Below, in pieces: positions 30,862-59,106 of a stretch of 64,000 bases of DNA. The stretch comes from Nemertoderma westbladi (Eukaryota > Animalia > Xenacoelomorpha). The number at the start of each line of letters is the position of its first letter. The stretch's first letter is position 1. The stretch lies in contig JAUCBJ010003174.1 of NCBI GenBank assembly GCA_032718475.1, forward strand, positions 1 to 64,000, in the 5' to 3' direction. The position numbers and the translations under genes are program-made. The notes beneath the pieces are model-generated. The model saw only the letters and a program-made list of their open reading frames with translations, ran no database searches and had not been told where the DNA came from.

Positions 30862-31295
30862 CATTATAGGCATTGCTTTCTTGTTTTGCATTGGTCAATT
30901 GTTAAAGTGAAACATTTTTTGAAGACAGATTCGGTTGCAACCAAGGACTACTATACTACAGGACTGGCATACTGCCTGATCCGACTTCGCTAGCGAAGTC
31001 CATTCATTTCATACTGCAGTACTGCTGTAAGCTGTACTGCTACCGTAGAATGATTTATTATACCAGTATACTTAACCTACAAACAGACAGCTAGACTGTT
31101 CTGCAGTTTACTGAACGTTCGCGCAGTGAAACTTCCTCCTGTCGGTGCCGAATGAGATCAGTGGATCGCCGCGCTACCACGACGCAGTGCAGGCAGATGA
31201 CGGCTCTCCGTTTAAGTTATGGAAGCACTGCCGTCATTTGTATTCAACATTCTGACATTGGCCAGAGTGTCCCGCGCAGCCGCGGGAATTCCGCA

Positions 31296-32526
31296 TGTTC
31301 GCGCTTTCAGACCTTTGGCAGTTTAATCCGCCAAATTAAGATGTCTTCTAGATATTAAATCGCTTTTTAGCCTATGACAAGTATTTGATTCACTACACTA
31401 GTCGAAACCAATCTGTGCGCGATCATTCACCCGCTGGATATTCCCGGGAGATTGGGTTCGACGGTTTAATTTTATTGCTATGTAAGCCTAATGTATTATT
31501 CGACTGACAGTATTATATAATCTCTGACAATATTATTCACCTTCGGGAATATTAACAGTTCCTTTAGGACGTGGCGCTTTATTTATATAAACAGAGTTAT
31601 GACTTAAACTACTCACAACGATATGGCTTAATTATAATTCACATATATGGCGCATTCTTTAGGAAATGCTTCTTTAACAGACTCACTCGTACACAATGCT
31701 GCACAATACTGCACACTAATCTGCCAATCTTCACTGATTTTAGTCACATATAAAAGGAACACAGACTGACTCATGTAGGGTCTATCAAATAACATTAGAT
31801 TCACTTCAAACCACTTTAACATAAGTCACAATCGTTATTGGTAACCTTTCTCTCTTACCTTCGGTATATCAAGAATATTGGGTTTTCGGGGTTATTTCTC
31901 GTTATTCCAATATAATAATTCATCAACAAATATAATGAATAACCGACAACAAATAGCAGTATACAGTATTGATTGAGCAGGTAATTTTAGCAGTTTCAGC
32001 AGTTATTAAAAGCCGTGTGTCAGCAGTGATTACGAAATTGCAGTGATTCCATGAGTTTGGTCGGTATGTCAGTTAAAGGATATATGTCCTTATAATTAAA
32101 CCTACTAGTGTTGAGCTAAAAAGCAGAAAAGCACAAAACACTATAAAGCCGTTCTTTCGTGGCTTTGAAAAACTCGTGACTACTGCTCTATACGAGGATA
32201 CCAACTACCCTTATTCCACGAAGCTCCCGTTCAACACAGAGAAAGAGCAGTGAGATAGGAAAATTTCAGTTCAGTAGCTCTGTGATAGGTCAAAATCAAG
32301 GCTAACTCAAATTCTATTGGGAGATACAAAAACAAGGCTATGACGCAACCTTTCTAGGCTGGTTGGCCGATTAAACAGAGCCCAGATACCTGCGTACAGC
32401 AAATCAGCCAATAAGCCGGTAGCTTGCACTGTTTTAACTATAGATCCCCTTTAGAGTATTCCAGCGACCGGGGGGGGAACTGGCCAACAAGGCAAACGAA
32501 TCAGTTACCCCACAAAAGCTTTTACA
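31296..32526 (-). repeat. 3' LTR of BEL element
   Basis: No difference from 44456-45686 seen by eye; constant offset of 13160. Confidence 0.95.
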
Positions 32527-35500
32527 CCGCTCCCAGAAAATGGGATTTAAGTCTATAAAATATACAAAATCACAGTTTCTAATATACATAAATACTCTAA
32601 ACAGTTAGTCTTTCTTGCGCGGACGGCGTTTACGCAGTTTTTTAAAGCTAGCAAGAGTCTTTTTCTCTTTAGGGGGAGCCACTTTACTAGGAGGGCCATA
32701 ACTCCTGGGTGAAGGGTGCAATATGATTGCATCAGAAGGTGTAGGATTGTGGTCGAGGTATCTGCCGTTTCGATATGCTTCTCCTCGAGCTGATTTTCCT
32801 CCGCTCGTAGCTGGATACGTTCATCCAAAAACTCTCGCAGAGAATAGGATCGCCCAAGTTCGATAACTTCTTAGAGATTCTGGATTTCCCAATCGAATTG
32901 AGATAAGGCCAATTCGTTTATCGATGGGACTTACTGTTATAACTTACGTTATCTGAACAAACGCAGGTTTCTTTTTTGATCTTTATAGAATAGCGTTTAA
33001 CTCGTTTCGTACAACGCTCTCCTTCACCTTGATGAAGGGTTGTATCGCGTTAAACGGGACGACCATACGGTTGGATAGTGATATTAGGTGTCTGCGTCAT
33101 AATCCGGTTAGGTAAGATGGGCGGCTAGCTAGAAATCACTGTCGAAGTGTTACTGATTAATTGTTAGGGTAGCACTAGATCTTGAACAGTGAATACCGTC
33201 CGCGAGGATCCGCGACACCACCAGGATCGCAGGTCTGAGGTCCAACTAAGGAATGAGGAGGTTTGACCGAGTATTCCGGGACTCTGATCGTAGGTTTACT
33301 CTAGGATCGTTAGAGCCGAGTGAGCATAGGTGATACGTCAACAAGTTTCGGTTTCCGTGGATGTTTATGTCTTTCCGTTTATTAGTTGGGTCTAGGGCAT
33401 TTATCGTAATGATACCAAAGACGCACGTCTGGTAAGGTAAACGCGGGTGATATTTATTTGTTGTTACAATGCTTCTATCAAGAATTCCAAATATACGTTG
33501 GAGTTACCGCGTCCATTTGTTTCTTTAGTGTCTTTTCTTTCGAGTCGATTTCGAATAGAATTTTCGCATTCGAATTTCTGTTTATGGTTCCGACTCCGCT
33601 GGGCAGGATATATAGTCGACATAGTCCGTATTGTGTAAATTGATAGAATGACCAGTAGTTAAGAAGCCCATATACGTACCATTACGCTGCGTATATCGAG
33701 CAGCGAATTTTCTATAGTCCAACTCTCGCGAGAGCTGCACTTGGGACATTGTCGGTTCGATATAACGACCATCGTCCTCCGCAGCAGTTGGACTAACGTC
33801 GCCGCGTATTAAGCTATCAACAAACGCTTGTAAAAGTAGAGTATATCGCTCCCCGATACCAAGACCATCTTCTATCAACTCCGTCATATCGGCTATATAT
33901 GAGTTTATCCATATTATAAGGAGTTTATATTTAGGCTAGCGAGCGTCGCTGCCTACTCCAATTAACCCCCGGACAGTACGAAATCCTCAGCGCCGATGTG
34001 TCGTCGCCGCTGTACTTTCGCCAACGACGTAGCCGCACAACGACAACGACAACCGGCACAAGTCACTCGACTGTCCGTCCCAAAGGCTTAGATGTACTTC
34101 AGGTATTCCTTGGAGAGTTAGGTTACTTTACGATTGCGACTAGCTACTGTAAACACACTTTAGCAGTAACATTCACCTATAAACTCACAAATACCACACA
34201 ACTGGTCACAACTACGCACATTCGGGCCATTTGTCCGTTAGTCAATGCCTTCCAGAATGTCACTGTATTATTATGTATCCTTGGATACTAGTAGTGCGCT
34301 ATTTATTCCCTATGCTATTTAATGGGACAAGCTTTCTATTGTTCTTTTAACTCAATTCTAATTCTAGCGTGGTTGTTGCTATGGTGACATTATGCAAAGC
34401 TAGCGGTAGAATTAGGGTAATTCCAATGCATACAGATCTGGGATGTTATTTAATAGTATTCTTTAATAGTCAATGTTCTGTTTTATACATGACTTTATGA
34501 ATTTTATCGGCTATTGACTATGTTTGGGAGACTTTCACACACTCATACGCATGATAAGATAAATCTCCGCTCCCTTGATCTATTAATTAATGAAATTTTG
34601 GGAACTTTATAAATTGCGTAAAAATGGCAATTTATTAAATTCATTAAAAGGCATGAATTTAAATTTATTCCCTGAAATTTTATTATTTGATAATTAAATG
34701 GACATATTTTGATTCTAGAACATGTCTAGGGACACAAGATCCTTAATTCTATGACAATTGTCCTTTTTAAGAATATCGGTAAATGCTACGATATCTTAAT
34801 TGACTAGAATTGTTGAAGGATCTGAATTTTACAGATTTTGATTTATTAGATTTGCAAATATTAAATAATTAATATTTGAGATGGGCACCGATTTATTCCA
34901 GAACTTGTCTGGGGACGTTAACCACTGATTCTAGAATTTGTCTTTCAAGTATATCGGTGGGTGCCACGATATCTTAATCGACTAGAATTACAGATGGTCA
35001 AAGGGTTTAACAGATTTATTTTGCGTTATACGCTACTGTTAAAGGGACATCACGCTACTATATGTATTATTTAAGATACGGTATGAGAGCAATATCGCAC
35101 GAAGCAATGTCAGTGTGAAGAGGCAAGTCGTTTCCAAGGTCTACCCAGAGCTTGGTTTAGCCGAGACACAAGGATCTGAACTTTGCATTCCTAATACTCT
35201 GCCTACCAATAATACTAAAATATAGTAGTGGCTTTATTGTACTTTAATAAGTACGGACATTTCATCTTACTGTAGTTACGTATTTATAATATAATACGGA
35301 CAGTAAGGAAAGAGAAAAAGAATTATTTCTCGCCGTCGCACTAAATATAATATAAGTAATTACGTACGTAATAAACACGAATATATTGCACTATTCTACT
35401 AAATAATCGCTAAATAATATTCTACTAAATTAAATAAAACGATTATAATAAAATTACATAGTAATACATACATAAATATAAAAATAATAATATAATATAA

Positions 35501-35533
35501 AATAATAGAGTCACACGCCCACTCCGAACGATA

Positions 35534-38500
35534 TTAAGTTGGGGAGTCCCTAGATGTCGGTTGGATTAGGGAAGTGGTCGTGGGAAGAGTTTCTTGCCTT
35601 CCATAGTTTCCGGAGAGCTCTCTGTCTCTTTCCAGTAAACATAAACGTCCCACTGGGCGATTGAGCTGTTGAGTCTCAAAGACTATCCCTGGTTTCTTAA
35701 AGTTCCGCCGCATGACGACGAGCTCTACTGATTGCACCAAACCATCGCTCGAGATATAAGTCTCGATGATACGTCCGGTTTGCCATCGCTTACGTGGGAG
35801 ATCGGGGTCCACAATAAGCACCATGTCTCCAGCGCTGACGTTTTCTTGCTGCGCAAACCACTTAGTTCGAAGTTGTAGAGTGGGCAGGTAATGTTTCTCG
35901 AAATGGTCAGCGAAACGACGGGATAGCAACTGCATAAGTTGCCAGGTTCGACGGCAGTACTCGTCTCCGTCTGTGATCTCCGATCGTGGGAGCATGGCTA
36001 CGGGTTTCTTCAGTAGAAAGTGCGCGGGTGTTAGCGCTTCCAGGGAATCAGGATTTGAAGAGACTGGCATAAGCGGTCTTTCATTGAGATAGGCGGCGAT
36101 TTCCTCCATTAACGTCCGCAATAGTTCGTCGGTGAGATAAGCGCGACAAGGCACAATAAAGTGGAACGCAGTCTTCACGCTCCTAATCAATCTCTCCCAA
36201 CTTCCTCCCCACCAAGGGGCGTCGGCGGCGTTGAAGGTCCAGCTAGACGCTGTTATCCTTAGCTGATCGTCCACCTGTCTTTTGTTCCAGTCCTTTACGT
36301 AAGCTTGAATTTCGTTGTTGGCGCCAATGAAGTTCGTTCCCTTATCCGATCTCATCGTGTTACTGGTTCCGAAGCGAGCGATCTGTCGTCGTAAACTCAA
36401 CACGAAGCTGTTGGTGGATAGATCGTTTACCATATCGAGATGAATGGCTCTACAAGTCATACAAACGAAGATGACACACCATCTCTTGACTATAGTCCGG
36501 GCACGATATACTTCAATAGGGCCAAATAAATCCACTCCGGTATTAGTAAAGGGTGGTTCATAGAAGCTTACTCTTTCCCTAGGTAATTCTGCCTCTCGCT
36601 GTGTCAAAGGCCTACTGAATGCTTTCCTACAGGGTATGCAGTTCCTAAGAACTTGGTTCAGAGCCCTACGGGGTTTATAAAAATAGTAGCGAGTTCGAAT
36701 TTCGCTCAGAACTCGTTCTCTACCCGCATGGTACAGTTTGCTATGAACATCTACAATTATCTTGATTTGTATATCAAGATTTCTAATGAGTATGGGAAAC
36801 TTAGTGTCAAAGGATAATGGGGCGTTGGTTAGCCTGCCTCCAACACGTATTAACCCATCTATCATGGTACTAGAGAAGCGATCCCTTAAGCGCATCTGTG
36901 GATTTCTTAACAACAGGAAATACTTATCGGAATCCTCATAACATTGTAGAAGTCTCAGCATCTGTTTGTTGGTTTCATCATGCTCCTGGTAACTGATCTT
37001 CTCCTTTAGAAACCTGTCGGATACCTTGTATTGGGGAAGATCTTTAACAACATGGACTCGTGCAGATGTTGATGGAGCATCATCACTATTGGTCTTTGTT
37101 CCGGAGTAACGATGATGAAAACATCGTTTCAAATAGGTAACAGCTTTACAGAGCCGATTCCAGGAACTGTAGTGACGTATCGCTCTCTGCAAGAGAGGTG
37201 AGAGTCCTTGCGCGATATCTGGTATTCCAGATTTCCAATCCTTGTCACGGATTTCCAAGACTTCTTTAGTTGTGGCAGTGGGTTTCTGATCCAAAGCATC
37301 CTCTCCGGAAGTAAATAATACAGATAGATCAACTGCAGGTTTAAACAACTTCGATTTACTCGCTCGAGTTTTGGGTTTAACTTTCTCCGCTCCCTTGGCC
37401 TGTCTGATCTCTGCTGTTGTGAGATGGGGAGGCCATTCTTCTTCTTCTCTGTAGAGAAAGTCAGGTCCTCCTAACCATTCGGGAGTATTTACCAATTCCT
37501 TTGGAGTCGCTCCTCGGGAAGCGATGTCTGCTGGGTTAATCGTTCCGGGGCAATGTCTCCATTGGTCCATCGTCGTGCGACTAAGTATGATGGCTACCCT
37601 GTTGGTAACGAAGACGCTGAACTGACAGACTTCATTGGTTATATACTCTAACACGAGTAAAGCGTCGGTCCAATAGACAGTTTTCTCTAATGGATAGTCA
37701 ATCTGTTCGGTTACATTCCGGCCGATGGCTGTAGCGTATAGAGCTGCTTTTAACTCCGCTCGAGGAACTTTCAACTTGTTGTTGATTAATGCCTTAGAAG
37801 TAACCAAGGCGACTTTGATTCCATCCGGAGTTTCCACTCTTAGGTAGGCTACTATACCGATTCCCATATCGCTGGCGTCTCCAAACACATGGAGTTGATA
37901 GGAATACGTAGGGAAAACATGACCAAAATATGAACGGGAAATTATAAAATCCTCGATATCTGGCAGAGAATCTTCCCATTTCATCCACTGCTTCAATAAT
38001 TCCCCCTTAAGTGGATCGTCCCATGAGTGGTTTTCAAGCCACATTTGTTGTACCAAACTACGAGCAATCAATATAACTGGGCTAATAAATCCCAATGGAT
38101 CGAAATAAGTGCTCAGTATACTTAAGCAAATCCGTTTGGTTCGAACTGGATTATCTCGCTGTTTTAGCTGGAAAAACAGGATATCTCGCTCTGTGTCCCA
38201 TTTCAAGCCGAGTGTCTTGGTTTCTGGCAGATCATCTTTGATCAAATCGAGATCTTTCGCTCCCCGATCTTCCGCAGGGATCGACTCCAGAAACTCACGG
38301 GAGTTGCTGGTGAATTTGGTTAATCGAAATCCACCTCTTTTTAAGCACTCTACCGTTCCCTTAGCGACCTCAATGGCTTCCTCAACTGATGGGAGGGACT
38401 TCAGATTGTCGTCCATGTATATGTCTCTCTTGATGTTGTCGATTACTTCCTTAGAGAATGCCTCTCGGTTGTCCTCTGCAGTAGTACGCACTACCGAACA

Positions 38501-40732
38501 GGCATTGGAAGGGCTTGAGATTATCCCAAAGGCCTGGATGGTCATCCAGTACTCCACCGGTTTCTGGTTGAGGTCTCCTTCGGGCCACCACAGAAATCGT
38601 AGACTATCTCGATCCCTATCTAACACCTTAACTTGTAAGAACATGCCTTCTATATCGGAGGCGAAAGCAATCGAATATTGTCTCAATCTTAAAAGAATCC
38701 CCAACAAAGATTGAAGCAAGTTGGGTCCGGGTAACAATTCAGAGTTAAGGGATTGACCCATGTAAAGAGCGGAGCCATCAAACACTACTCTCACTTCGTG
38801 TGGTTTACCGGGTTTAGGAACGTAATGGTGAGTTAAGTAATACGTTCTTTCAGTCACAGGTGTTTCTTCCGGTACTCTCTCCGCGTATCCCTTACTAATA
38901 AATTTTTCCAGCTGAGTTTGATACATTGCTTTAGCTGAAGAATTAGCCGTAAGGCGTCGATGGAGTTGCGCGATTCTTTTTTCCGCCAAAGGTCTGTTAT
39001 TGATGAACTTCGGTTCTCTCTTGCGAAAGGGTAAACCGACTTCATACCTACCTTGATCTTTGAGGAAACGTGTAGTTGTCTCTTGGATCTGCTTGGCCCT
39101 TTCCTCTTCCACCGACAAGGCTTTATCGTAGGAATTGGGCTCTACCGCCTCTTGCGTAAAGAATCGTACAGCATGTTCATCTCGAGTCTTGGCATTGCAA
39201 CGCTCAATGACGTCATTTAACTCGTCGTTGTAAGCTTCTCGTTCAGATGGATAGAGAAGTTGACATAAGTTCACTTGGTTTTGCCAAGCCTCGTTTTCCT
39301 TAAGGAGATCGATGGTATTCTCCTCATCAAAAAGCTGGTGAACGTCGTCATTATCTGAGGAGTATGGAATTCCCTCAGTTGAGTTGTCTCCCTCACTGGT
39401 ATCATCTTCCCATTCACTCACCTGGCAGACTCTCTCTTGCGGTAGTCTTTCTCTGAGTGTTCTACGGGAAGGGCCAGTAAAGTACCAACCTACTCTAGTT
39501 CTTACCGCATAGGTCTGTAGGGGCTGCGGTTGAGCAGGCCGTTTCTCTAACGTCTCCAGCGCCTCATGCGCGTTTTGGCCGATGAGTATTTGCACTCCAG
39601 GATAATCAGTCTGGAATCGAGGTATGTTAAGATGTTGGATGCTCTCATCCTCGTCCCAATTATAAAGGTCTGCTTGAGTAGTAGCGAAGTTCTTTATAGC
39701 CACCATTTTCACTGACCTTATGCTGTGTTCTCCTAGTTCGTCCTGGGGGGTGGACAACGCTCCTACATAATAATCAGCTGTTATTGTAGATTTCCAAACT
39801 TGCATAATGCCTGACATGTTGAGCTTAGTTTGGAACTTGGGTTGTCCAGCAAATATATCTTCGGCTAGCTCTTTGTCGATGAATGTTCCTGTACTACCGG
39901 AGTCAAGGAGGGCGTTCACTACATAACTCCTCTCAGGTCCGTGAACCCTTACTTGCACCACAGGAAACTCTCGGATCCCTACATTGGAAGATGGCTCTTT
40001 CCAAGATGGTTGTCGCTCAGAAGTAGTTAGAGTAAAGTCGTTGTCTGGATCCTTTTCATAGGTGAGTGCTCGATACACTGCGGTATTTATCATGTAACAG
40101 GATTCGTTTTCGTCGGAGAACTCGTCTGTATAGAATCCTTCCATCTCAGATTGATCAGTGTCGTTCACATCACTGAATTGGACATGTAGCTCGGAATCAC
40201 TTACCTGATTCGGACTATTTCGATCGAATTCAGCGTGCAACAAGATATGATGTTTCGCACCACACTTTGCACACCTTATGTCAGAGAAACAGGTTCGCCG
40301 TTGGTGTCCTTGTCTGAGGCAATTATAACATAACCGCTTATCCCACATGACTTCGCGTCTCTCTGTTAATGATTTCTTTAGAAATTCATCACACCTATTC
40401 AAATGGTGGGTCCCGTCGCACAGCGCACATTTCTGTTTGATGTTACTTACCTTATTTTGAGTCACATTGTGTACACTTGCTTTTTCTTCGGGTTTTCTCA
40501 CCTGAATTCTCTTGGGAGACGTGGGAGGAGTTTTTCTTACCTGTTCCCTCCTGTCATTTGTTCGAGACTTGAATTTACTTACCTGATCTTTAGGCATTTT
40601 ATTCACGTAATAAGATCTATCCGTGTCCTTCCCGCTATCTTCTCCTTGAGAAGTCTGGCTTTCGCCGTCATCGGTATAACATACTGGTGTTACCTTTCTC
40701 CTAGAGACGGGTTTTTCACTTACCTTGTTCAC
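35534..40732 (-). CDS. BEL/Pao gag C-terminus + pol (zinc knuckles, protease, RT, RNase H, integrase)
   Basis: Three Cys/His knuckles (CALCDGTHHLNRC, CYNCLRQGHQRRTC, CAKCGAKHHILLH), ALLDSGSTGTFI, YMDD, LHVFGDAS, GVDLFGP / SDKGTNF / WERLIRSVK; domain order PR-RT-RH-IN. Confidence 0.96.
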   Translation of the reverse strand: MNKVSEKPVSRRKVTPVCYTDDGESQTSQGEDSGKDTDRSYYVNKMPKDQVSKFKSRTNDRREQVRKTPPTSPKRIQVRKPEEKASVHNVTQNKVSNIKQKCALCDGTHHLNRCDEFLKKSLTERREVMWDKRLCYNCLRQGHQRRTCFSDIRCAKCGAKHHILLHAEFDRNSPNQVSDSELHVQFSDVNDTDQSEMEGFYTDEFSDENESCYMINTAVYRALTYEKDPDNDFTLTTSERQPSWKEPSSNVGIREFPVVQVRVHGPERSYVVNALLDSGSTGTFIDKELAEDIFAGQPKFQTKLNMSGIMQVWKSTITADYYVGALSTPQDELGEHSIRSVKMVAIKNFATTQADLYNWDEDESIQHLNIPRFQTDYPGVQILIGQNAHEALETLEKRPAQPQPLQTYAVRTRVGWYFTGPSRRTLRERLPQERVCQVSEWEDDTSEGDNSTEGIPYSSDNDDVHQLFDEENTIDLLKENEAWQNQVNLCQLLYPSEREAYNDELNDVIERCNAKTRDEHAVRFFTQEAVEPNSYDKALSVEEERAKQIQETTTRFLKDQGRYEVGLPFRKREPKFINNRPLAEKRIAQLHRRLTANSSAKAMYQTQLEKFISKGYAERVPEETPVTERTYYLTHHYVPKPGKPHEVRVVFDGSALYMGQSLNSELLPGPNLLQSLLGILLRLRQYSIAFASDIEGMFLQVKVLDRDRDSLRFLWWPEGDLNQKPVEYWMTIQAFGIISSPSNACSVVRTTAEDNREAFSKEVIDNIKRDIYMDDNLKSLPSVEEAIEVAKGTVECLKRGGFRLTKFTSNSREFLESIPAEDRGAKDLDLIKDDLPETKTLGLKWDTERDILFFQLKQRDNPVRTKRICLSILSTYFDPLGFISPVILIARSLVQQMWLENHSWDDPLKGELLKQWMKWEDSLPDIEDFIISRSYFGHVFPTYSYQLHVFGDASDMGIGIVAYLRVETPDGIKVALVTSKALINNKLKVPRAELKAALYATAIGRNVTEQIDYPLEKTVYWTDALLVLEYITNEVCQFSVFVTNRVAIILSRTTMDQWRHCPGTINPADIASRGATPKELVNTPEWLGGPDFLYREEEEWPPHLTTAEIRQAKGAEKVKPKTRASKSKLFKPAVDLSVLFTSGEDALDQKPTATTKEVLEIRDKDWKSGIPDIAQGLSPLLQRAIRHYSSWNRLCKAVTYLKRCFHHRYSGTKTNSDDAPSTSARVHVVKDLPQYKVSDRFLKEKISYQEHDETNKQMLRLLQCYEDSDKYFLLLRNPQMRLRDRFSSTMIDGLIRVGGRLTNAPLSFDTKFPILIRNLDIQIKIIVDVHSKLYHAGRERVLSEIRTRYYFYKPRRALNQVLRNCIPCRKAFSRPLTQREAELPRERVSFYEPPFTNTGVDLFGPIEVYRARTIVKRWCVIFVCMTCRAIHLDMVNDLSTNSFVLSLRRQIARFGTSNTMRSDKGTNFIGANNEIQAYVKDWNKRQVDDQLRITASSWTFNAADAPWWGGSWERLIRSVKTAFHFIVPCRAYLTDELLRTLMEEIAAYLNERPLMPVSSNPDSLEALTPAHFLLKKPVAMLPRSEITDGDEYCRRTWQLMQLLSRRFADHFEKHYLPTLQLRTKWFAQQENVSAGDMVLIVDPDLPRKRWQTGRIIETYISSDGLVQSVELVVMRRNFKKPGIVFETQQLNRPVGRLCLLERDRELSGNYGRQETLPTTTSLIQPTSRDSPT

Positions 40733-42200
40733 TTACCTTTATGCAGTCTTGATTCTCCTGAATGTTTTCCAATTCTAATTGGGTGGTTTCTTCAGTCGCT
40801 CTCCGTTCGGCTTCTGCCACTGCCTCCGCCGCTTTTCTTTCCGCTTCGGCCGCCGCCTCTGCTGCCGCTACTGCTGCTTTTGTCTCTGCCGCTGCCGCTT
40901 TTGTTTCTGCTTCGGCCGCTGCCTTTGCTGCTGCTACTGCCGCTTTTGCCTCTGCCGCTGCCACTGCCGCTGCCGCTTTTGTTTCTGCTTCTGCAGCTGC
41001 CACTGCTGCTGCTACTGCCGCTGCCTTTCTGTCTTCTATACGTTTTTTCTTTACTTGTTCTTCCTGGACTCGTGTGATGCGGAGTTGTTCATCAAATTTA
41101 GCCTGATTCGCAGCCCTCATTTCCACATCGATGGCATCCAACACAAGCTTGGTTCCTTCACTATTAGGGCTAAGTCCCTCTAACCTTCTCCTCAACTCGT
41201 CATCACCTAAAAAACGTTGATAGTCTGACAGATAAATGTCAATGGCATCCCTCTTATGCGGTTTCTCTGCCGTCGCTTCACTTTCCACTTGGGAAAAAGT
41301 AGCGTCTGTTGATTCTCCATGGGTTGATCGCTCCTCCAGCTGAGCTTTCCACTGAGCTGTTCCTTGAACCTGGAGACTCACCCGTTGAAACCAAGTCTTT
41401 ACGGCAACTTGCAACGACGTGTCTTGTCTTCGTTTAGAAGCCTCCTCAAAGGCTGATAAGATTAGCCTGATTCGTAGAATTCTTTCTCTAACTTGATAAA
41501 GCAGCAATCCCTGCTCTTGAGGTCCTTGAGGTTGTTGAAACAGTTGTTCTTTTAATCGCTCTATAGAGCTGAAGAATCCCTGTGCGTATCCGGCTGCGGA
41601 CCTCTTCCACACAGCTGGATCGATGGTTTCCTTGGCTACTCCCATCCGGTGTATGTCTTCCCAGGCAGATTCTGATAAATCAAACGGGAGTCCGGGTCCG
41701 GGGAAGTTCCATTGCGACTCGACCATGGACTTCAGTTCTTCCCTTGTGTATCCAGCATAACTATCTCTAGTTGAACGCTGGCTTCTCGCCCAATCGATCT
41801 GGTGTTCTTCCACAGCGATCAATAACCTAGTGAGTACGGCTGCAGGAAGGATGAGAAGGGGATCCGAATAAACCACATCCGTCATCCTTGCTCCGCGCTC
41901 GGGTGTCAGCTCTACAGTATCCTCACTACTGGAGCTGTTGGGCCATTGAGAAGTAAGTTCTTGTCTCGCGGGTTGTTGCTGTTCCGCTGCTTCTTGGTCC
42001 CGTTTGACCTGAGCTCGAGTGCCTATGATAGACCTACGATGTTGGACCAGCCTAGGTTCTTTTATTACTACTGGAGGGATGACTTTCCTCACAGTGGGAG
42101 GTGAACTGAACTTGCGACCAGACGGTTGTACGTCTCTATCTGAGTCGCAGATAGTTACATCTAATAAACTGTCTGACAGGTTCTGCTTAGTATCAGACAT
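40716..42200 (-). CDS. BEL gag N-terminal part with Ala-rich coiled segment; out of frame with the rest because of a 13-bp duplication
   Basis: 494-aa ORF; deleting one AAGGTAAGTGAAC copy fuses ...CIKVSE to KPVSRR... of the next ORF. Confidence 0.85.
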   Translation of the reverse strand: MSDTKQNLSDSLLDVTICDSDRDVQPSGRKFSSPPTVRKVIPPVVIKEPRLVQHRRSIIGTRAQVKRDQEAAEQQQPARQELTSQWPNSSSSEDTVELTPERGARMTDVVYSDPLLILPAAVLTRLLIAVEEHQIDWARSQRSTRDSYAGYTREELKSMVESQWNFPGPGLPFDLSESAWEDIHRMGVAKETIDPAVWKRSAAGYAQGFFSSIERLKEQLFQQPQGPQEQGLLLYQVRERILRIRLILSAFEEASKRRQDTSLQVAVKTWFQRVSLQVQGTAQWKAQLEERSTHGESTDATFSQVESEATAEKPHKRDAIDIYLSDYQRFLGDDELRRRLEGLSPNSEGTKLVLDAIDVEMRAANQAKFDEQLRITRVQEEQVKKKRIEDRKAAAVAAAVAAAEAETKAAAAVAAAEAKAAVAAAKAAAEAETKAAAAETKAAVAAAEAAAEAERKAAEAVAEAERRATEETTQLELENIQENQDCIKVSEQGK

Positions 42201-43573
42201 GACTATGTATACCGTTGAATGTCTACTGCTGTATTACAGTCTGAGTAAGTCTAGTAACTCAGTATTAACTGCTAGCCTAGTAATTAATTACCGGTACTGC
42301 TACTCAGTGTAGCGTGATATATATAATATATTAGAATACCAGTATGCTTATAGTATATATAACTATTATTACAGACTAGGTTTATCACCGAATACCGGTA
42401 TAATTTTAGCACAAATATATATAAATATATAATAGGCCTATCGAGAATACCGGTACAGCTGACAGTTTGTAGTGTATATATAAGTATAGTTACAGACTAG
42501 AATTAATTACAGAATACCGGTATGATTTCAACCTAAAATTTATAGAAATAAATATAATAAGCCTATTGTAAATACCGGTATGTCAATTATTTTAGAATAA
42601 TTGAATTTCTGAACTTTAGGGTTACTTGGTTACTTTAACTTACTTTATTACCGTTATTTAAGCAGTAGTCCAACTGATATTGAGACCTAATTGTTATATG
42701 GTAGGCCTACTATTTATAAATCGTTAGATTTGATTTATAATATATATATACCCGTTTTAATGGGTTTAGTCAATGTTTGAAATAAATGTTATTATTTCTG
42801 GGGTAATCACTACACAAAGCGGTACGCTTTCAGTGAAGTGTTACGTACAGGACACTAAAACAAATGATTCTAATTTACCTAAGTTACTTAATACTACAAA
42901 TTACGTACAATTCGGGTGAGATTACAATCTCTAAATAAACACAAAAATTTACAAAAACGCAAATACGAATTTTCAGGGTAATTTTACAAGAAGTCTACAA
43001 ACCAGCCTAACAAAGGGTTAGAAAACTGGTTATTACAACGGACAGGGTACTACGGTATTTGAAATAATAAGTAGTAGTAAATACACTGCGTTGTCCAGAT
43101 AGAAAAATACCACCGCCTGACGACCTATAGCCGTATCGCTATAGGTTCTACGTTATGTATCACGGAGTGTTCCTACCTAGAAGTTAATAGAGCTAATCGA
43201 ACGTGCCTATCAACCACTTTACAACACAAATATAATGCCTACACTAATTACTTCGGAAAGTACTGTACACTAAACCCTAAATTAGGTACGAGTACTTGTA
43301 CAACAGATAATCAGTAGTTAAATATACTTGAACAGCTAAAAGAACCACGGCATCTGCTGGAGTGACCGATGCACAAAATCACCAGTCTTTACCTACGCCA
43401 AGCAGCCCGTGTAGTACCGGGGTTAATTTAACTATAGCGGTATGTATAACAAACACAATTACTGTAGGAACAAACTTGGGGAATGAATGTTGCGAATAAT
43501 CGCATAAACTCTGAATAATAAATATTACGCTACGCGTACAAACTACTCAAACAAAATGCAGACCGAACACTGA

Positions 43574-44085
43574 CAGACTACTATCAAGCCTAAACAAACT
43601 ACAGGACATGCAGACTCCGAAATGATTAGGGAGTATGCGTTCTAACCCAGTAGTACGACTTATTCTTTAATTGGGGGTTTACCTTACAGCATTCGCTGCC
43701 CCTACTTCCTAACCGTACTTAATCGGACAAGTGATCTACACACGCTGCAATCCGTTCAGACCTAATAACAGCCAGACAACTATCCAGCCTACAAATTATC
43801 TAAATAAAATTATACGCTACCCGTACAGACTTACACAAACAAAGTACAGACTAAACGATGGCAGACTACTCTCAAGCCTAAATAAACTACAGGACATGCA
43901 GACTCCGAAATGATTAGGGAGTATGCGTTCTAACCCAGTAGTACGTCTTATTCTTTAGTTGGGGGTTTACCTTACAGCGTTCGCTGCCCCTACTTCCTAA
44001 CCGTACTTAATCGGACAGGTGATCTACACACACTGCAATCCGTTCGGACTTAACAGCAATCAGATAACAGCTCAGCCTACAAATT
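43574..44085. repeat. ~288-bp-period direct repeat in the BEL 5' untranslated region
   Basis: acaggacatgcagactccgaaatgattagggag... at 43601 and 43889. Confidence 0.85.
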
Positions 44086-44455
44086 GTCTGTACAATCTGA
44101 TCAGGTTTACACGCCTTCTGTTCAATACTGGCCTACAAATAAATAAAACTTGACAGAAATAAGTAAACCATATAAAGGAATAAGGGGTGATCAATCCCTA
44201 ATCCCTTAAACAGCCTACCGGTATACAACAATCAAATCGAATAATACTAGTGTACTTATACGGAAGTACCGGTTAGGACAGCTAGGCCTACGGACCTACA
44301 GAAGTACCGGTTCTGGCAGTTGGGCCTACTGACCTACGGCAGTACCGGTTCTGGCGGTTGGGCCTACTGACCTACTGAAGTACCGTTCAGGTTTACCGGT
44401 TGACCGGTACTTTCAACTTTATTGCTTACTGCAATAAAGAAGCTATATCCTTTAA

Positions 44456-45686
44456 TGTTCGCGCTTTCAGACCTTTGGCAGTTTAATCCGCCAAATTAAG
44501 ATGTCTTCTAGATATTAAATCGCTTTTTAGCCTATGACAAGTATTTGATTCACTACACTAGTCGAAACCAATCTGTGCGCGATCATTCACCCGCTGGATA
44601 TTCCCGGGAGATTGGGTTCGACGGTTTAATTTTATTGCTATGTAAGCCTAATGTATTATTCGACTGACAGTATTATATAATCTCTGACAATATTATTCAC
44701 CTTCGGGAATATTAACAGTTCCTTTAGGACGTGGCGCTTTATTTATATAAACAGAGTTATGACTTAAACTACTCACAACGATATGGCTTAATTATAATTC
44801 ACATATATGGCGCATTCTTTAGGAAATGCTTCTTTAACAGACTCACTCGTACACAATGCTGCACAATACTGCACACTAATCTGCCAATCTTCACTGATTT
44901 TAGTCACATATAAAAGGAACACAGACTGACTCATGTAGGGTCTATCAAATAACATTAGATTCACTTCAAACCACTTTAACATAAGTCACAATCGTTATTG
45001 GTAACCTTTCTCTCTTACCTTCGGTATATCAAGAATATTGGGTTTTCGGGGTTATTTCTCGTTATTCCAATATAATAATTCATCAACAAATATAATGAAT
45101 AACCGACAACAAATAGCAGTATACAGTATTGATTGAGCAGGTAATTTTAGCAGTTTCAGCAGTTATTAAAAGCCGTGTGTCAGCAGTGATTACGAAATTG
45201 CAGTGATTCCATGAGTTTGGTCGGTATGTCAGTTAAAGGATATATGTCCTTATAATTAAACCTACTAGTGTTGAGCTAAAAAGCAGAAAAGCACAAAACA
45301 CTATAAAGCCGTTCTTTCGTGGCTTTGAAAAACTCGTGACTACTGCTCTATACGAGGATACCAACTACCCTTATTCCACGAAGCTCCCGTTCAACACAGA
45401 GAAAGAGCAGTGAGATAGGAAAATTTCAGTTCAGTAGCTCTGTGATAGGTCAAAATCAAGGCTAACTCAAATTCTATTGGGAGATACAAAAACAAGGCTA
45501 TGACGCAACCTTTCTAGGCTGGTTGGCCGATTAAACAGAGCCCAGATACCTGCGTACAGCAAATCAGCCAATAAGCCGGTAGCTTGCACTGTTTTAACTA
45601 TAGATCCCCTTTAGAGTATTCCAGCGACCGGGGGGGGAACTGGCCAACAAGGCAAACGAATCAGTTACCCCACAAAAGCTTTTACA
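44456..45686 (-). repeat. 5' LTR of BEL element
   Basis: TGTAAA...GAACA on the minus strand. Confidence 0.95.
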
Positions 45687-48600
45687 CCGCACAAGAAAGT
45701 CCCTGGCGGTTCCTTGTGACCAACAATACCTCCATTCTACTTCCCTTATCGTGTGTTCCACCGCGACCCCCCACTCCACGAGAACTCCCTCCCATTGCGG
45801 AACGCCAACTTCAGTTGCTCAATGAGCGAGATTTAATTGGGGGCTTTTTGCAGCTGACTGAACCCGTTGTTTCTAAGTGGCTAAAGGGAATCGCAGGATA
45901 CGGCCGCGATACTGACATTTTTGTGAAGCGATCGGAGTTCCAAGTAGCCTATTGCTTTTCTTATTCCATAACGACGAATATACAGGTTTCACTTTTGTCA
46001 AAGAAGCAACTTACGTTGCAGGATTCCTGCCCTGATAAAGGTAATCCCAGAGTTAGACATCACAGGTGATATTTTAGAGGAGGATAATATATTTATTTAC
46101 CCAAGCCCTAACTCGTGGTGGATTACAACTTGCTCCTCATGCCTCATCACCTCTTATGATGGACCATGGTGTCGGCTGCGTGGGTGGATGCTTTACCTAA
46201 TGGAACTATACGGTGCTACAAACAACTAACTCAAGTAGTGCACATGATTGCGGTCTATTACGGTATCTCCCCACTGCCACCAATAGCTGCTTGCCGTATC
46301 CTAGCAAACACCCTTCTTAATCGAGTACAAAAGCGATCTATGGAAGAAACGGATAGGCAGAAACGGCGCGACACGCATTCTGGCGATACAGCCGCACAAA
46401 CTAAATTAGTAAATTAAATTCCTCCGAATAACGGGAAGTGGACAAAATAAATAAATATTATTGTATACCAGGCCGAAATATGATATCGTTTCGTATCACG
46501 TCAAACTGTGGACTGAGATATTTCCGAACCAGGAGAGACTCATAAAAACTGAGATATTTCTCTACAGAGGGTCACACGTTGAGTCCGCGCCCGGAAAGAC
46601 TCATAAACACAGATATTTCTCTACAGGGGGTCACACGTTGAGTCCGCGCCCGGAGAGACTCATAAAAACTGAGATATATATATAAAGGAGTCTACAGGGG
46701 AGTCACTCGTTTAATTTTCCGGTTTATGTTTAATATTCGGGATTGATACTTAATCAATTTATTAATTAATAATTTCAATATCTTTTTTTTATTAATAATA
46801 ATAATCAATAATTTGATTGAAGATTTTTTAATTAATGAAGAGCCCGTATCGGGGTCATTGATGTGTTTTCAGTCTGGGGTGGGGAATATTGGGTCGGCTA
46901 TCGTAATAAATAATAAAGTAATAACATAGAGTACCTACTAGTAATATAAAGTAAGTACCTAATAGTAATATAAAGTAAGTACATACCTAATAGTAATATA
47001 AAGTAAGTACCTAATAGTAATATAAAGTACCTAATAATAATAGCCCTATAAAGTAATAATATCAGAAAGGCAGTTGGGGGGGGGGGGGGGGGGGGGGGTA
47101 CCTGGAACCTGGCTTGACTTAGGATAGTAAATGACCAGAGATAAAGAATATAGAGAGAGGGAGGTCCATGTATATTGCTGTATTGTGGGGTGAGACAAAT
47201 ATACCGTTAGTTGAATCCGATATCATCTGTGTAACAACATTCCCCTACCAATAGGGGTACTGTTCACATCGTTTTTTATGTCGCACAATGTACTAACTCA
47301 ACACGGTCGTTCTAGACTATAATGAATAGTTAGTACACAACACTCGTCGTCCCCTTTGTTACAAGCCTCGCTGCGCTCGTCCTTTATTTCTTGACACCAA
47401 AATTTATTATGTTACTAATAATTACGATTGTGTACTAAATTTCATACAAATCCTTTGATAACAATGTCTATAACAGTATAAAGCAATACCAAACCAATGG
47501 ACTTCGCTAGCGAAGTCGGATGAAGGGGTGTGCCAGTCCTGTAGTATAGTAGTCCTTGGTTGCAACACATTCAGAATCGCAAAGATTTACTATCACAGGC
47601 AATAGGCCTACCTATATAGCAGTACGAAAGTCGGTAAAGTGAAACATTTTAGTTCTGTTCTGATACCCTTTCGACATGCAGATTTGCAGAGTACCGGAAG
47701 CTCCATTGATAGTGGAATACAGTACTGCAGTAAAGTCAGTATAGCAGTAGGCCTAGTACTATCATACAGTCAGGGTATGTCAGTACAGCACCGTTACTAT
47801 TGGTCGTAGGTGGGCTTGGCAATCAAGAAACTCTGTAGTGTACCGGTACTAGGCCACAGGAAGAGTTGGCCTACTGACTTTGTTTACTGTTTTTCGACAA
47901 TCTTTTAATTACAGGCCTACCGGTAGGCCTAGGCCTAATGCTTTTATTGTTAATCTCAACCGCGCACTTTCGGTATTGTGTTTATTAGTGTTTATGTTAC
48001 CGCGCAACTTCTGTCGTTCTGTGTCATGTTAATTTTACCACGCACTCTTCGCAATTACGCGCTCTGTACCAGTACCAGTACCATGTACATGTACAGTAGT
48101 TGGTTTGGGTGATTTTAATTACCGTTAATTTGTAATTGTCTGAATGTCTGATTGGTACAGCAGTGAATGTAATACATTCAGTTACTGTGTACTGGTAGGC
48201 CTTAATTTTGGTACTCACCTGGAATAGCTGGAATAATCAGGGAATTTCACTTTTTCTTTAAATTTCAGGGAATTCTTGTAAAAAATTGACACATTAGGGA
48301 ACATTTTCTATATAGAGGATACAGGAACAGGACATTGTGTCATGATGAGCGAAAATATGTAAAATTTTATCTGCTAGCTTCGCTCGCCATTCAATTTTCT
48401 CACATCTCTAGATATGGACACTTTGGACTCATTGGACTCATAAATATGGACACTATCATTGCTTCTTTGTCATCAGTAATTGGTCTGTTGTGGTAGTTTG
48501 CCGATATGCGATATGTAACTTTTTTTTGTAACCAATCGGAAATCTGCTTAATTTAGTTTATTATTTTTTAAACCAATCAGAAACCTTGTCTAGGGTAGGA

Positions 48601-52647: not shown

Positions 52648-54230
52648 ATGGCCGCTTTCAGCCTCAGAAGGGAATTGAATCACTTTATCTCCCACCGATG
52701 TTATGAAAGAAACCCGAGATTATAATTCGCCATTCTTTATCGTTCCAACTGATTCCATTGCGGAAATAAAAGAAACACAGGAATGTATTCCCGATGTGGA
52801 TATATCTGATACTGCGATAGACCTGTTGGAGGATGTTAATGACGTCAGTTCCGGTAGACACTCGAATACTGATGGTGGTCCTTCTGTACTGAGTGTCGAG
52901 GAATGGGACGCGAGGTTTGGGACGCGTTGGAACCGAAGCCGAAAGGACTTCTAGTGGGGAAAGTCCGACCTCAGTAGCTGAGGAAGAAGAATTAGCTGAA
53001 GTGGTTTCTGGTTCTTCTACAGTTGAGTCGCAATTAAATGTCGTCTTGACTTCCAGATCGGTTGCCCCTTTCGAACCACGACGTGGTTTACGAACCAGAA
53101 AGGAGGTCCCCGATTACGCCAACTGCAACTGCCCAATAAAATCGTTTAGCAACTTTATATACATCGACCTTTACCGACGTACACCGAGTTGCAGTGTCCG
53201 GTACACGGGGAGTTAACTTCATACCGAATACCGAAACCACCTGTGGTGGAAGGAACCGGGCAGCAGAACAATTCCGTCGTGTTTGGAGATAAATAAATCC
53301 CCTTTTCATAAGAAAGGGGTGTTTACCAAGGTCGACTTGAATCCTGGAACATTATTTGGTCCTCATGATGGAGAGAGGAAACCAGGTAAACCGAAACCCG
53401 GGAAGACCGACGGTTACAGCTGGTTGATGCTGGACGATGAGGGTAAATTCTTTACTATCAGCGGGAGATGGGAGTTCAATTCAATTTGGATGCGCTACGT
53501 AAACTGAGCCAAATTGGAACAGGAACAAACCCTTTGTGGGTCCCAGTTGGGAGAGGATATATATTAGCGGGTCTGTAAACCAGTTGCAGCCGGTACGGAA
53601 CTCCTTACTTGGTAAGGAACGGGATACGCCAAAGAATTGGGAATAGTTACCAAACAATCGTAGGCTAAGAAATTGGGGATGAAAGCTCTGGAGGACGGGA
53701 TGGTTTTATGTACTGGATGTAGCAGTTCCCAGTCTGATAATCAGGAGGCAATTCTTAGACACCAGAGTAATCGAGGTGGATGTGCTGAGAGAAAGAGATT
53801 AGATTTAGTTCACAATAAGAGTTTACATAAATTCCCGTGCGAACATTGCGACGTCGTCTACACGGTGGAATATTTTCTTGTTTCCCATTTAAAACGGAAA
53901 CACAATGAACCCGGCTCTACTCCAACAGGTTCGGGTTCCAACGTTCCTACTGATCCCAAGAAACGTTCCAGTTCAGATGAACCAACCAATAGTCTGGGAT
54001 GTAGTTCTTGTGGGAAAGTGTTTGCAAGGAAATATAATCTAATGAAACACGAACGCGCTCACTCTGGCGAGAAACCGTTCAGCTGCCGAATCTGCTCTAA
54101 ATCTTTCTCTGATAGCTCAGCATTAATACGCCACCATGCACCAACGCACGCACACTGGAGAAAAACCGTACGGTTGTACAGAGTGTGGTATCGAGAGAAG
54201 GGAAGACTTTAGTCGCTCGAATTGATTAAT
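52648..54230 (+). pseudogene. PRDM9/PRDM7-like intronless pseudogene (SSXRD-like, PR/SET, C2H2 fingers)
   Basis: GLRTRKEV (SSXRD-like), GTLFGPHDG...GYSWLM...WMRYVN*A...EQ...IY*RVCKPV..GTELLTW*GTGYAKELG, then [34 protein letters not shown]; several stops and frameshifts. Confidence 0.85.
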
Positions 54231-55300: not shown

Positions 55301-55763
55301 ATTTGAGTAAAGTATTTGCAATCGGGGAGCGATTGCTAGCTAGATTAAAGTTAATGTGCTTTTCAACAATAACATATACGTATGCTTGTTGTCAATTAAT
55401 TATAATAACAAAACAATTATTATTAATTATAGATGAAGCAAAGGATGGCTTACATGGTCTTGGGTTTATGGTACGTTATATTACAACAGATACTTGTATT
55501 CAGTAGTGGCAACAATGGGTCAAAAACACGATGGGCACGCGCGCCGCCCAATCGCACAGTTTGGTACACCATATCACCCACGAAAACCAAATTAGGGTAA
55601 TTAAAAGTTAATACGCGGAATTAGAGGTCATTTACGGGAAAGTTTAATGGAAAGGCTATAACTACAGGCACGAGCAAGACGTGCTTGCATATAAAATATA
55701 ATAATAATAGCAGTAATATAAAGTATAATATAATCTATAAAAAATAACGTTTGATTCACTAAC

Positions 55764-58288: not shown

Positions 58289-59106
58289 CTGTGAAACAAA
58301 ATGGGATAACTTCAACAAAGGGTGGTCAAATATTACATAATAAATATTAATTTGCTTAATTACTTAATGTAATTATTGGCTTACGTGTTGTAATTTACGG
58401 TTAATTTCTTTCAAAAACAAAACAGTGAATATCATTTAGAACAATTTTTAAACACAAAAGGCCTTTTAAAAAAGGCTATTATTATGTTTTTATACAAAAT
58501 AACTATATTTGTTGCAAAGAAAACATTTAGGCCAATAACAAATTCCCTCAGACACAGAGATGGATTTTTTGAAGTAAAATTAATTGCTCTCAGAGACGTG
58601 GTTTTTTCACATGCTCTTTCACATGAAACAAGCGAATACGGAAAAAAAATTCTGAGTCGCCAACCCCGGCCCATTAACCCAGTGAGCGATGTCAATTACA
58701 AGTAGTTTTCGATGAAATACTTGATTTTAGCCACCATTTTTTGAATAAAAGCAGTGCAATCTTCATTCCTGAAACGTAAAAGGGCAATTTAATGGAATAA
58801 AAAACGCGAAATCGCGCAAAGGTCCGCGTCTACTAACGCATGAACTGTCTCCTTGAATGACTTACTACCAATCGTAATACCAAAAAATATTCATTCACCA
58901 AGAGATTGAACACGGGGTACCGTCGCTCTACTAAAGTCAAACGCTCTACCAACTTCGCCACTGCGCCGTATGAAGCCTTACAAAACTAAAACACAACAGG
59001 AAATTAAGAACAACACCAACAGCGGGTGCCTCTTGATGTCTCGCTATCCCGGACCTAATAATAATATAAACTATGGATTTAACTGAAAATATTGATTGTA
59101 TTTTAC

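What the first reader, a model, noticed from the sequence alone, without database searches (positions are those of the whole stretch)
44417..45244. BEL/Pao element with a self-complementary PBS: candidate tRNA-independent self-priming
Seen: directly after the 5' LTR end (...GAACA) the sense strand reads TTAAAGGATATA (44455-44444), not the TGG of a tRNA PBS. Its exact 12-nt complement TATATCCTTTAA lies inside the LTR (45244-45233), oriented so that its 3' end would sit at the LTR boundary. A 9-bp hairpin (44417-44439) follows. Established: Tf1/sushi-type Ty3/gypsy elements self-prime using the first ~11 nt of their RNA; I do not know of this in BEL/Pao. My rough base-composition estimate puts a chance match in the LTR below 1 in 1000. 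Caveats: no clear TATA at -30 and a long (~790 nt) implied R-U5.
Basis: partly seen in the sequence, partly recalled or inferred. Interest (0 to 1): 0.75.

Follow-up and report, generated by a model that had tools for sequence, protein, structure and literature searches.

The report
Self-primer site in BEL/Pao retrotransposon
A young, intact BEL/Pao jumping gene has no tRNA landing site; the 12 bases right after its left terminal repeat pair exactly with a stretch inside that repeat, so it likely starts copying itself with a piece of its own RNA, a habit so far described only for a different group of elements.

Summary
The element is an intact 14,391-bp BEL/Pao LTR retrotransposon on the minus strand, with identical 1,231-bp LTRs and TSD TGCGG. 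The 12 nt directly after its 5' LTR (44455-44444) have an exact complement inside the LTR (45244-45233). Chance gives this in about 1 in 1000. There is no TGG for 285 nt after the LTR.

The pairing recurs in relatives. In all 4 other BEL/Pao families from metagenome contigs whose LTR ends I could fix from LTR pairs, the 10-12 nt at offset 0-4 after the LTR are again complementary to the element's own LTR. There, however, the complement only forms across a canonical GTAAG...YAG intron inside the LTR (combined p about 5e-8). The window's element carries the uninterrupted form.

Self-priming is therefore the best reading, at about 0.65. The Tf1-style detail, a transcript start at 45244, is untested, and a TATAAG only 5 nt upstream argues against that exact start. 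No RNA evidence could be obtained.

Six literature searches found no paper describing this in BEL/Pao, and the ICTV profile states tRNA priming. Earlier unchecked notes of this scan report the same signature on other DNA, and they gave me the splice-junction lead.

The parts
44456..45686 (-). 5' LTR (1231 bp, TG...CA)
   Evidence: 100% identical to 31296-32526; boundaries fixed by the TSD
31296..32526 (-). 3' LTR
45687..45691 (-). target-site duplication TGCGG, upstream copy
   Evidence: read; same 5 nt at 31295-31291
31291..31295 (-). target-site duplication TGCGG, downstream copy
44444..44455 (-). primer-binding site TTAAAGGATATA, directly after the LTR (offset 0)
   Evidence: no TGG for 285 nt downstream
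45233..45244 (-). candidate self-primer TATATCCTTTAA inside the 5' LTR (LTR position 443-454)
   Evidence: exact 12-nt complement of the PBS; p about 1e-3; no variant listed inside it in runs X4 and X5 (15 rows unseen)
32073..32084 (-). same 12-mer in the 3' LTR
45249..45254 (-). TATAAG, best TATA-like box near the motif, 5 nt upstream of it
   Evidence: read; position. Its role is inferred
45104..45232 (-). array of about 7 ACTGC(T) repeats, hypervariable between family copies, starting 1-3 nt after the motif
   Evidence: sequence; depth trough and joints; loose ends at 45230/45231
44738..44743 (-). AATAAA poly(A) signal candidate (a second at 44636-44631)
44417..44439 (-). 9-bp hairpin 4 nt after the PBS
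   Evidence: not found in the 4 relatives folded there
32527..32534 (-). polypurine tract GGGAGCGG abutting the 3' LTR
   Evidence: relatives have (A)GGGGCCGG at the same place
40716..42233 (-). gag-like ORF (505 codons, first Met at 42200), no Pfam hit
35534..40732 (-). pol ORF (1732 codons; protease, RT with YMDD, RNase H, integrase), in another frame than gag

Best explanation
This is a recently inserted, coding-intact BEL/Pao LTR retrotransposon that likely primes minus-strand DNA synthesis with a piece of its own LTR-derived RNA instead of a host tRNA.

Shown: the 12 nt that abut the 5' LTR are the exact complement of LTR positions 443-454, in the polarity a primer needs. No tRNA-type site is present.

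Inferred: the LTR-derived 12-mer in the element's RNA anneals to this site. The RNA is cut after ...TTTAA, presumably by the element's RNase H as in Tf1. The new 3' OH is extended into U5.

In the four comparable relatives the same primer sequence exists only after an intron inside the LTR is spliced out. The window's element would then be the uninterrupted, 'ready-made' form. Whether the primer is the very 5' end of the transcript or lies inside a leader is open.
For: (1) The exact 12-nt complement at offset 0 has p about 1e-3 by three controls.

(2) No TGG occurs in the 285 nt after the LTR, and there is no Rfam match in 42200-45700.

(3) Relatives. Of 73 metagenome loci, LTR ends could be fixed from LTR pairs in 6 loci, which make 4 families: L064 (sibling L063), L070 (sibling L061), L071/L067/L060, and L052. 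All 4 have a complement of the post-LTR bases in their own LTR, split by GTAAG...YAG:
- L064: 12 nt, offset 2, intron 77 nt.
- L070: 12 nt, offset 3, intron 149 nt.
- L071 family: 10 nt, offset 0, intron 71 nt.
- L052: 12 nt, offset 4, intron 123 nt.

Fake-site controls reach these lengths in 0 of 750, 1 of 750, 7 of 750 and 1 of 1000 sites respectively. Fisher's combined p is 5e-8 for the relatives alone.

(4) With no splice-site rule imposed, the unique best split in L064 and in L070 still has GTAAG...YAG borders. Both LTRs of every relative keep donor and acceptor.

(5) The post-LTR sequences differ between families while the pairing is kept.

(6) If the RNA starts at 45244, folding pairs the 5' end with the PBS with probability 0.87-0.99 for 11 of the 12 pairs, in RNAs of 815-845 nt.

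(7) No variant is listed inside the PBS or the motif in runs X4 and X5, while the flanks vary (15 rows not shown).
Against: - There is no RNA evidence of any kind: the transcript start, the cleavage and the primer are all inferred.
- TATAAG lies 5 nt upstream of the motif, so a start about 30 nt after it would fall beyond the motif.
- If the RNA starts at 45270, the predicted pairing probability is 0.
- The distance from primer end to LTR end is 777 nt here, against 87-216 nt in the relatives.
- The window's primer ends in AA, whereas the relatives' primers all end in AC opposite a PBS that starts GT.
- On a pol tree the window's element sits on a long branch. It is weakly placed (support 0.34-0.75) near insect and nematode BELs, and is not nested within the signature-bearing group.
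- In runs X1 and X3 the LTR part that holds the motif has 5-10 times less summed depth than the PBS side. Most family copies may therefore have a different upstream LTR part whose motif I could not read.
- The contiguous test failed in the relatives: the best matches were 8, 7, 6, 6, 0 and 0 nt.
- The split test was chosen after reading earlier notes of this scan, and the offset limit was widened to 5 after seeing L052.
Confidence: 0.65

Rival explanations
1. The pairing is real and selected but is not the primer. It would be a long-range RNA-RNA contact between the LTR-derived part and the leader, for example for genome cyclisation, packaging, dimerisation or a translation/replication switch. 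The true primer would be something else.
For: The complementarity is non-random here and in 4 of 4 relatives. No cleavage or extension has been shown. If TATAAG (45254-45249) sets the start, the motif would be transcribed only in the 3' LTR copy, which suits a 5'-3' contact. Such contacts are known in Ty1 and Ty3 (recalled, not checked here).
Against: In all 5 families the complement ends 0-4 nt from the LTR boundary, with the polarity a primer needs. A mere contact has no reason to sit there. No other candidate primer site exists: there is no TGG for 285 nt.
Confidence: 0.17
2. The 12-mer match is a coincidence, and the element uses an unknown or unconventional host primer, or this copy is not replication-competent.
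For: A chance of about 1e-3 is not negligible when very many LTR elements are screened. The motif is A+T-rich. The window's element is only distantly related to the relatives that show the signature (30-43% pol identity).
Against: The same kind of complement is found in 4 of 4 independent relatives (combined p 5e-8). The LTRs are identical and the ORFs are open, so the copy moved recently with this PBS. No variant is listed in either 12-mer in two runs.
Confidence: 0.08
3. The site binds an internal part or a fragment of a host tRNA, as copia-type elements do with half of the initiator tRNA (recalled), or it binds a mitochondrial tRNA.
For: The host tRNAs could not be compared. No genome is held, and there is no tRNA gene in the window or in the 73 loci.
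Against: Five families have five different post-LTR sequences, whereas tRNA-primed lineages reuse a few tRNAs. Each of these sequences matches its own LTR instead.
Confidence: 0.07

Closest known systems
Tf1/Tf2 of Schizosaccharomyces pombe and the Tf1/sushi group (Ty3/gypsy): self-primed reverse transcription
   Same: The PBS next to the 5' LTR is complementary to the element's own LTR-derived RNA rather than to a tRNA, and the duplex is about 11-12 nt long. [quoted passage not shown] In Tf2 the self-primer lies in R (passages of PMC5341516).
   Different: The superfamily differs: this element is BEL/Pao, with Peptidase_A17 and DUF5641. It is not shown that the 12-mer is the transcript's 5' end. 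The distance between primer and PBS is 777 nt. In the related BEL/Pao families the primer sequence is interrupted by a GT-AG intron in the LTR, which is not part of the Tf1 model as given in the passages I read.
Canonical BEL/Pao (Belpaoviridae) replication as given in the ICTV profile
   Same: Gene order, LTRs of up to 1.2 kb, a PPT of about 10 nt, and gag and pol in two frames (passages of PMC8742986).
   Different: The profile states an 18-nt PBS complementary to the 3' end of host tRNA-Arg or tRNA-Gly, and replication primed by a host tRNA. Here, and in 4 of 4 relatives, no such site is present. At 14.4 kb the element is also longer than the 4.2-10 kb given there.
copia-type priming by an internal tRNA fragment; Ty1 and Ty3 5'-3' RNA contacts
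   Same: They are non-standard primer sites without TGG, or LTR-leader pairings that support reverse transcription.
   Different: Those systems still depend on a host tRNA. Here each family's site matches its own LTR.

Membership tests
BEL/Pao (Belpaoviridae, Semotivirus-like) LTR retrotransposons | Pol with Pao-type protease/RT region and the BEL/Pao-specific C-terminal integrase extension | tested here: met
   Peptidase_A17 6.9e-36, DUF5641 3.1e-18, Integrase_H2C2 2e-07. The best protein relatives are BEL/Pao polyproteins at 31-43% identity.
BEL/Pao (Belpaoviridae, Semotivirus-like) LTR retrotransposons | LTRs with TG...CA ends, a 4-6 bp target duplication, and a PPT before the 3' LTR | tested here: met
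BEL/Pao (Belpaoviridae, Semotivirus-like) LTR retrotransposons | PBS complementary to the 3' end of a host tRNA (stated in the ICTV profile; descriptive rather than defining) | tested here: not met
   No TGG within 285 nt after the LTR. The host tRNA set itself was not available.
Tf1/sushi-type self-priming elements | The sequence abutting the 5' LTR is complementary to the element's own LTR RNA, with the primer's 3' end at the LTR boundary | tested here: met
   12 of 12 nt at offset 0; p about 1e-3
Tf1/sushi-type self-priming elements | The complementary stretch is the first ~11 nt of the mRNA | not testable with these tools
   No RNA run was usable and contigs cannot show starts. TATAAG at -10 to -5 speaks against a start exactly at 45244. 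In one relative (L016) a TATATAAG lies 31 nt before the start of the complement.
Tf1/sushi-type self-priming elements | RNase H of the element cuts the RNA duplex to free the primer | not testable with these tools
   An RNase H region is present in pol by reading. Activity is unknown.
Tf1/sushi-type self-priming elements | Membership of the Tf1/sushi clade of Ty3/gypsy | tested here: not met
   The Pfam profile and the relatives are BEL/Pao.
Tf1/sushi-type self-priming elements | The pairing is kept in related families with different letters | tested here: met
   4 of 4 relatives with pair-defined LTR ends keep it, but across an LTR intron. As a contiguous stretch it failed in them.

The most novel reading that the evidence does not exclude
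A large part of the BEL/Pao superfamily does not use tRNA primers at all but encodes its own primer in the LTR. In most lineages that primer exists only after the host spliceosome removes an intron from the LTR transcript, so splicing licenses reverse transcription. The window's element is the intron-less derivative, made when a fully spliced RNA was copied, and it now carries the primer ready-made.
Probability: 0.4. Interest if true: 0.9.

Novelty: new variant of a known kind. Interest (0 to 1): 0.75.

Why it matters
Self-priming of reverse transcription has been described for the Tf1/sushi branch of Ty3/gypsy. The reference description of Belpaoviridae says these elements are primed by a host tRNA (PMC8742986, passages).

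If BEL/Pao elements prime themselves, three things follow:
- A second superfamily has escaped dependence on host tRNAs.
- PBS-based annotation tools that search for tRNA complements will miss or mis-bound these elements.
- The split form in the relatives would tie the start of reverse transcription to host splicing, which would be a new kind of control point.

The window's copy is young and intact and belongs to a very abundant family. Its host would therefore be a good place to map transcript starts and strong-stop DNA.

Tried and rejected
- **Host genome:** none is held, so there was no genome-wide survey of family copies or of host tRNAs.
- **tRNA genes:** none in the window or in the 73 loci.
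- **Other copies:** the window holds no other copy of the family.
- **Viral-contig scan:** no match.
- **Sequencing runs:** no RNA holder is listed. X4 is only guessed to be RNA. Both read-laying runs returned contigs only, which cannot show starts or ends. Parts without cover in X4 (45100-45189) say nothing.
- **Contiguous complement in relatives:** lengths were 8 nt in L064 (p 0.026, and a G:U wobble instead in its 3' LTR and in L063), 7, 6, 6, 0 and 0 nt. This was rejected as support.
- **ACTAGTAG motif:** it is shared upstream of the complement in the window and in L064. I dropped it as probably chance, because in L009 it lies before the PPT.
- **Blind scan of 67 of 73 loci at every CA site:** split hits of >=11 nt occurred in 11 loci, against 4 in antisense decoys. 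Contiguous hits occurred in 13 against 16 and are therefore background. L016, L039, L049, L053 and L006 are leads only, and L059 is a false hit in coding sequence.
- **LTR pairs left out:** L054, L029, L010, L028, L036 and L073 have a 3' copy cut by the contig end. L043 has a 105-nt pair at 91% identity. L006, L009, L030, L048, L051 and L056 have terminal overlaps or are tandem.
- **Hairpin after the PBS:** not conserved.
- **Split complement in the window's own LTR:** none found.
- **Intron-less siblings of the relatives:** none among the loci.
- **Rfam:** nothing.
- **Tree:** the first attempt timed out. The second used 34 sequences, and L070, L067, L039, L006 and P0075 fell out for short ORFs or short matches.
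- **Literature:** six searches found no description of BEL/Pao self-priming. I read passages only, and saw no supplements.

Full report
**1. The observation**

The window holds one full-length LTR retrotransposon on the minus strand.
- Its two LTRs (45686..44456 and 32526..31296) are 1231 bp and identical. They begin TG and end CA, and are flanked by the 5-bp duplication TGCGG.
- Between them lie a 505-codon gag-like frame (42233..40716) and a 1732-codon pol frame (40732..35534) in another reading frame.
- Pol matches Peptidase_A17 (Pao), DUF5641 and Integrase_H2C2, and its best database relatives are BEL/Pao polyproteins at 31-43% identity. The element is therefore BEL/Pao, intact, and very recently inserted.
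- Directly after the 5' LTR the sense strand reads TTAAAGGATATA (44455-44444).
- The exact complement TATATCCTTTAA lies at 45244-45233, with a twin at 32084-32073. Its orientation puts its 3' end opposite the first base after the LTR.
- The 9-bp hairpin at 44439-44417 is predicted.

**2. Is it more than chance?**

Three controls agree on about 1 in 1000.
- 16 of 20000 first-order Markov shuffles of the LTR give a complement of >=12 nt anchored at offset 0-3.
- With the real LTR and fake primer sites taken every few bases downstream in the same element, 2 of 750 sites reach 12 nt.
- In the stricter version, 1 of 1000 sites does.

This is a per-element figure. A screen over very many elements would meet such matches by chance, so independent evidence was needed.

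**3. Not a tRNA site**

- The 285 nt after the LTR contain no TGG, so the CCA end of a mature tRNA cannot pair there.
- Rfam finds nothing in 42200-45700.
- The host's tRNA genes could not be compared. No genome is held, and neither the window nor the fetched loci contain a tRNA gene. Priming by an internal tRNA fragment is therefore not formally excluded.

**4. Relatives**

A scan of metagenome contigs with a pol alignment (A1) returned 73 loci of BEL/Pao relatives at 28-45% amino-acid identity.
- 19 of the loci carry a direct repeat.
- Only in 6 loci could both ends of the LTR be fixed from an LTR pair: L064, L070, L071, L067, L060 and L052. With siblings L063 and L061, these make 4 families.
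- The other 13 were left out because the 3' copy is cut by the contig end, the pair is short and poor, or the repeat is a terminal overlap or a tandem. They are listed under Tried and rejected.
- None of the 4 families has TGG after the LTR. Their post-LTR sequences all differ, and all have (A)GGGGCCGG as PPT, where the window has GGGAGCGG.
- A contiguous complement in the LTR, as in the window, was not found. The best matches were 8, 7, 6, 6, 0 and 0 nt, and none was convincing.

**5. The split complement**

Earlier, unchecked notes of this scan on other genomes say that in some BEL/Pao elements the PBS is complementary to a splice junction formed inside the LTR. I tested that on the loci fetched here.
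- In all 4 families the bases at offset 0-4 after the LTR are complementary to two LTR pieces. The first piece is followed by GTAAG. The second is preceded by a pyrimidine-rich tract and AG in L064, L070 and L052, and by TGTAG in the L071 family, whose acceptor fails the pyrimidine filter.
  - L064: 12 nt (6+6), intron 77 nt.
  - L070: 12 nt (5+7), intron 149 nt.
  - L071/L067/L060: 10 nt (5+5), intron 71 nt.
  - L052: 12 nt (6+6), intron 123 nt.
- Fake-site controls on the real LTRs reach these lengths in 0 of 750, 1 of 750, 7 of 750 and 1 of 1000 sites. Fisher's combination gives 5e-8 for the four relatives and 2e-9 with the window included.
- When no splice-site rule is imposed, the unique best split in L064 and in L070 still has GTAAG...YAG borders. 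In the L071 family the GT-AG solution ties with others. In L052 a non-canonical 14-nt split that uses a nearby repeat of the same hexamer scores higher.
- Both LTR copies of every relative keep donor and acceptor.

Two caveats apply. The split test was prompted by the earlier notes, and I widened the allowed offset to 5 after seeing L052. The controls used the same settings.

A blind scan of 67 loci without knowledge of the LTR end is much less specific: 11 loci had a split hit of >=11 nt, against 4 in antisense decoys, and contiguous hits were at background. I therefore treat L016, L039, L049, L053 and the possibly ready-made L006 only as leads.

**6. What this means for the window**

Five independent families have five different sequences at the primer position, and each matches its own LTR in the polarity and at the place a primer requires. 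That makes chance an unlikely explanation for the window's 12-mer.

The window's element differs from the relatives in several ways.
- Its complement is uninterrupted.
- It ends in AA rather than AC.
- It lies 777 nt from the LTR end rather than 87-216 nt.
- On a pol tree of 34 sequences it sits on a long, poorly placed branch rather than inside the group that shows the split signature.

**7. Where does the RNA start?**

This could not be settled.
- No RNA run is on record. One run (X4) is only guessed to be RNA, and all data are contigs.
- The best TATA-like box (TATAAG, 45254-45249) is 5 nt upstream of the motif. A start about 30 nt after it would lie beyond the motif.
- Weaker TATA-like strings further upstream would place the motif inside a leader of 30 nt or more.
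- Folding an RNA that begins at 45244 pairs its 5' end with the PBS at probability 0.87-0.99. An RNA that begins at 45270 does not show the pair.
- In relative L016 a canonical TATATAAG lies 31 nt before the first base of the complement, which would make the spliced RNA begin with the primer as in Tf1. The other relatives give no clear box.

The Tf1-style detail, that the primer is the first 12 nt, therefore remains possible but unsupported for the window.

**8. Family variation**

- The family is hugely repeated in the DNA runs.
- Contigs of other subfamilies share the LTR from the motif upward and diverge 1-3 nt below it. They run into an array of ACTGC-type repeats that differs between copies (sequence).
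- No variant is listed within either 12-mer in X4 or X5, while the flanks vary. However, 15 rows were not shown, and the big runs' tables were cut.
- The upstream LTR part has 5-10 times less summed depth than the PBS side in X1 and X3. Many copies may therefore carry another upstream part that I could not read.

**9. Mechanism**

Shown: the pairing, its place, its polarity, the absence of a tRNA-type site, and recurrence in relatives.

Inferred steps:
- The LTR-derived 12-mer of the element's RNA anneals to the PBS.
- The RNA is cut after the duplex.
- The 3' OH is extended through U5 and R.
- The cut-off part is restored from the 3' LTR copy after the first strand transfer, as in Tf1 (mechanism as summarised in passages of PMC7175516 and PMC5341516).

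For the intron-bearing relatives the same scheme would keep the intron in the progeny only if the 3' LTR copy stays unspliced. Copying an RNA spliced at both ends would give an intron-less LTR with a ready-made primer, which is what the window shows. This last step is my inference and is untested.

**10. Known or new**

- The ICTV profile of Belpaoviridae states priming by host tRNA-Arg or tRNA-Gly (passages).
- Six full-text searches found no paper describing self-priming or a spliced primer in BEL/Pao. I read passages only, in nine papers, and no supplements.
- Self-priming itself is established for Tf1/sushi elements. I therefore class the finding as a new variant of a known kind.
- Earlier notes of this scan report the same signature on other DNA. 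They are unchecked AI notes and were used as a lead, not as evidence.

**11. Verdict**

- Observation: confirmed.
- Interpretation: partly supported.
- Self-priming: about 0.65.
- A selected pairing with another role: about 0.17.
- Chance: about 0.08.
- A tRNA fragment: about 0.07.

Noticed in passing
window 32527-32534, 34567-34574, 37387-37394 (minus strand): The PPT octamer GGGAGCGG occurs three times in the element: once at the 3' LTR and twice further upstream, one of them inside pol. Many relatives likewise have a second GGGGCCGG 3-4 kb upstream of their 3' PPT. This may be a central PPT or a conserved coding motif.
   Followed up: partly
window about 8000-16000: A long G-rich satellite with a unit of about 44 nt, 51-53% G+C and a GC skew of about +0.48. 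It overlaps long ORFs with no Pfam hit on both strands at 14992-17636.
   Followed up: no
window 32527-35533: About 3 kb between the end of pol and the 3' LTR has no ORF over 118 codons. The element is 14.4 kb, well above the 4.2-10 kb given for BEL/Pao. The 5' UTR is 2.2 kb and holds three tandem-repeat arrays (42353-42580, 43510-44089, 44259-44385).
   Followed up: no
window 45018 (donor-like GAAG|GTAAGAG) and 45275 (acceptor-like CTTTTCTGCTTTTTAG|): The window's LTR has strong splice-site look-alikes, but none of them builds a PBS complement.
   Followed up: partly
L016:2148-2270: In this relative a canonical TATATAAG lies 31 nt before the first base of the PBS complement, which is only 5 nt before the intron donor. 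If that box is used, the first exon would be about 5-6 nt and the spliced RNA would begin with the primer.
   Followed up: partly
L016, L039, L049, L053, L064, L070, L071, L052: In every split case the predicted primer ends in AC, 5-7 nt into the second exon, opposite a PBS that begins with GT. The part contributed by the first exon is 4-7 nt.
   Followed up: partly
window 7357-8529 (+) and 53664-54212 (+): Host-gene fragments: a dynein heavy-chain N-terminal region 2 exon, and a C2H2 zinc-finger ORF.
   Followed up: no
window 55628-58363 (-): A 911-codon open frame with no Pfam match.
   Followed up: no
window 42200-45800 in runs X1 and X3: The family is extremely abundant: 40454 and 8678 contigs were laid at >=85% likeness. 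The upstream LTR part (45104-45708) has 5-10 times less summed depth than the downstream part and the internal region.
   Followed up: partly
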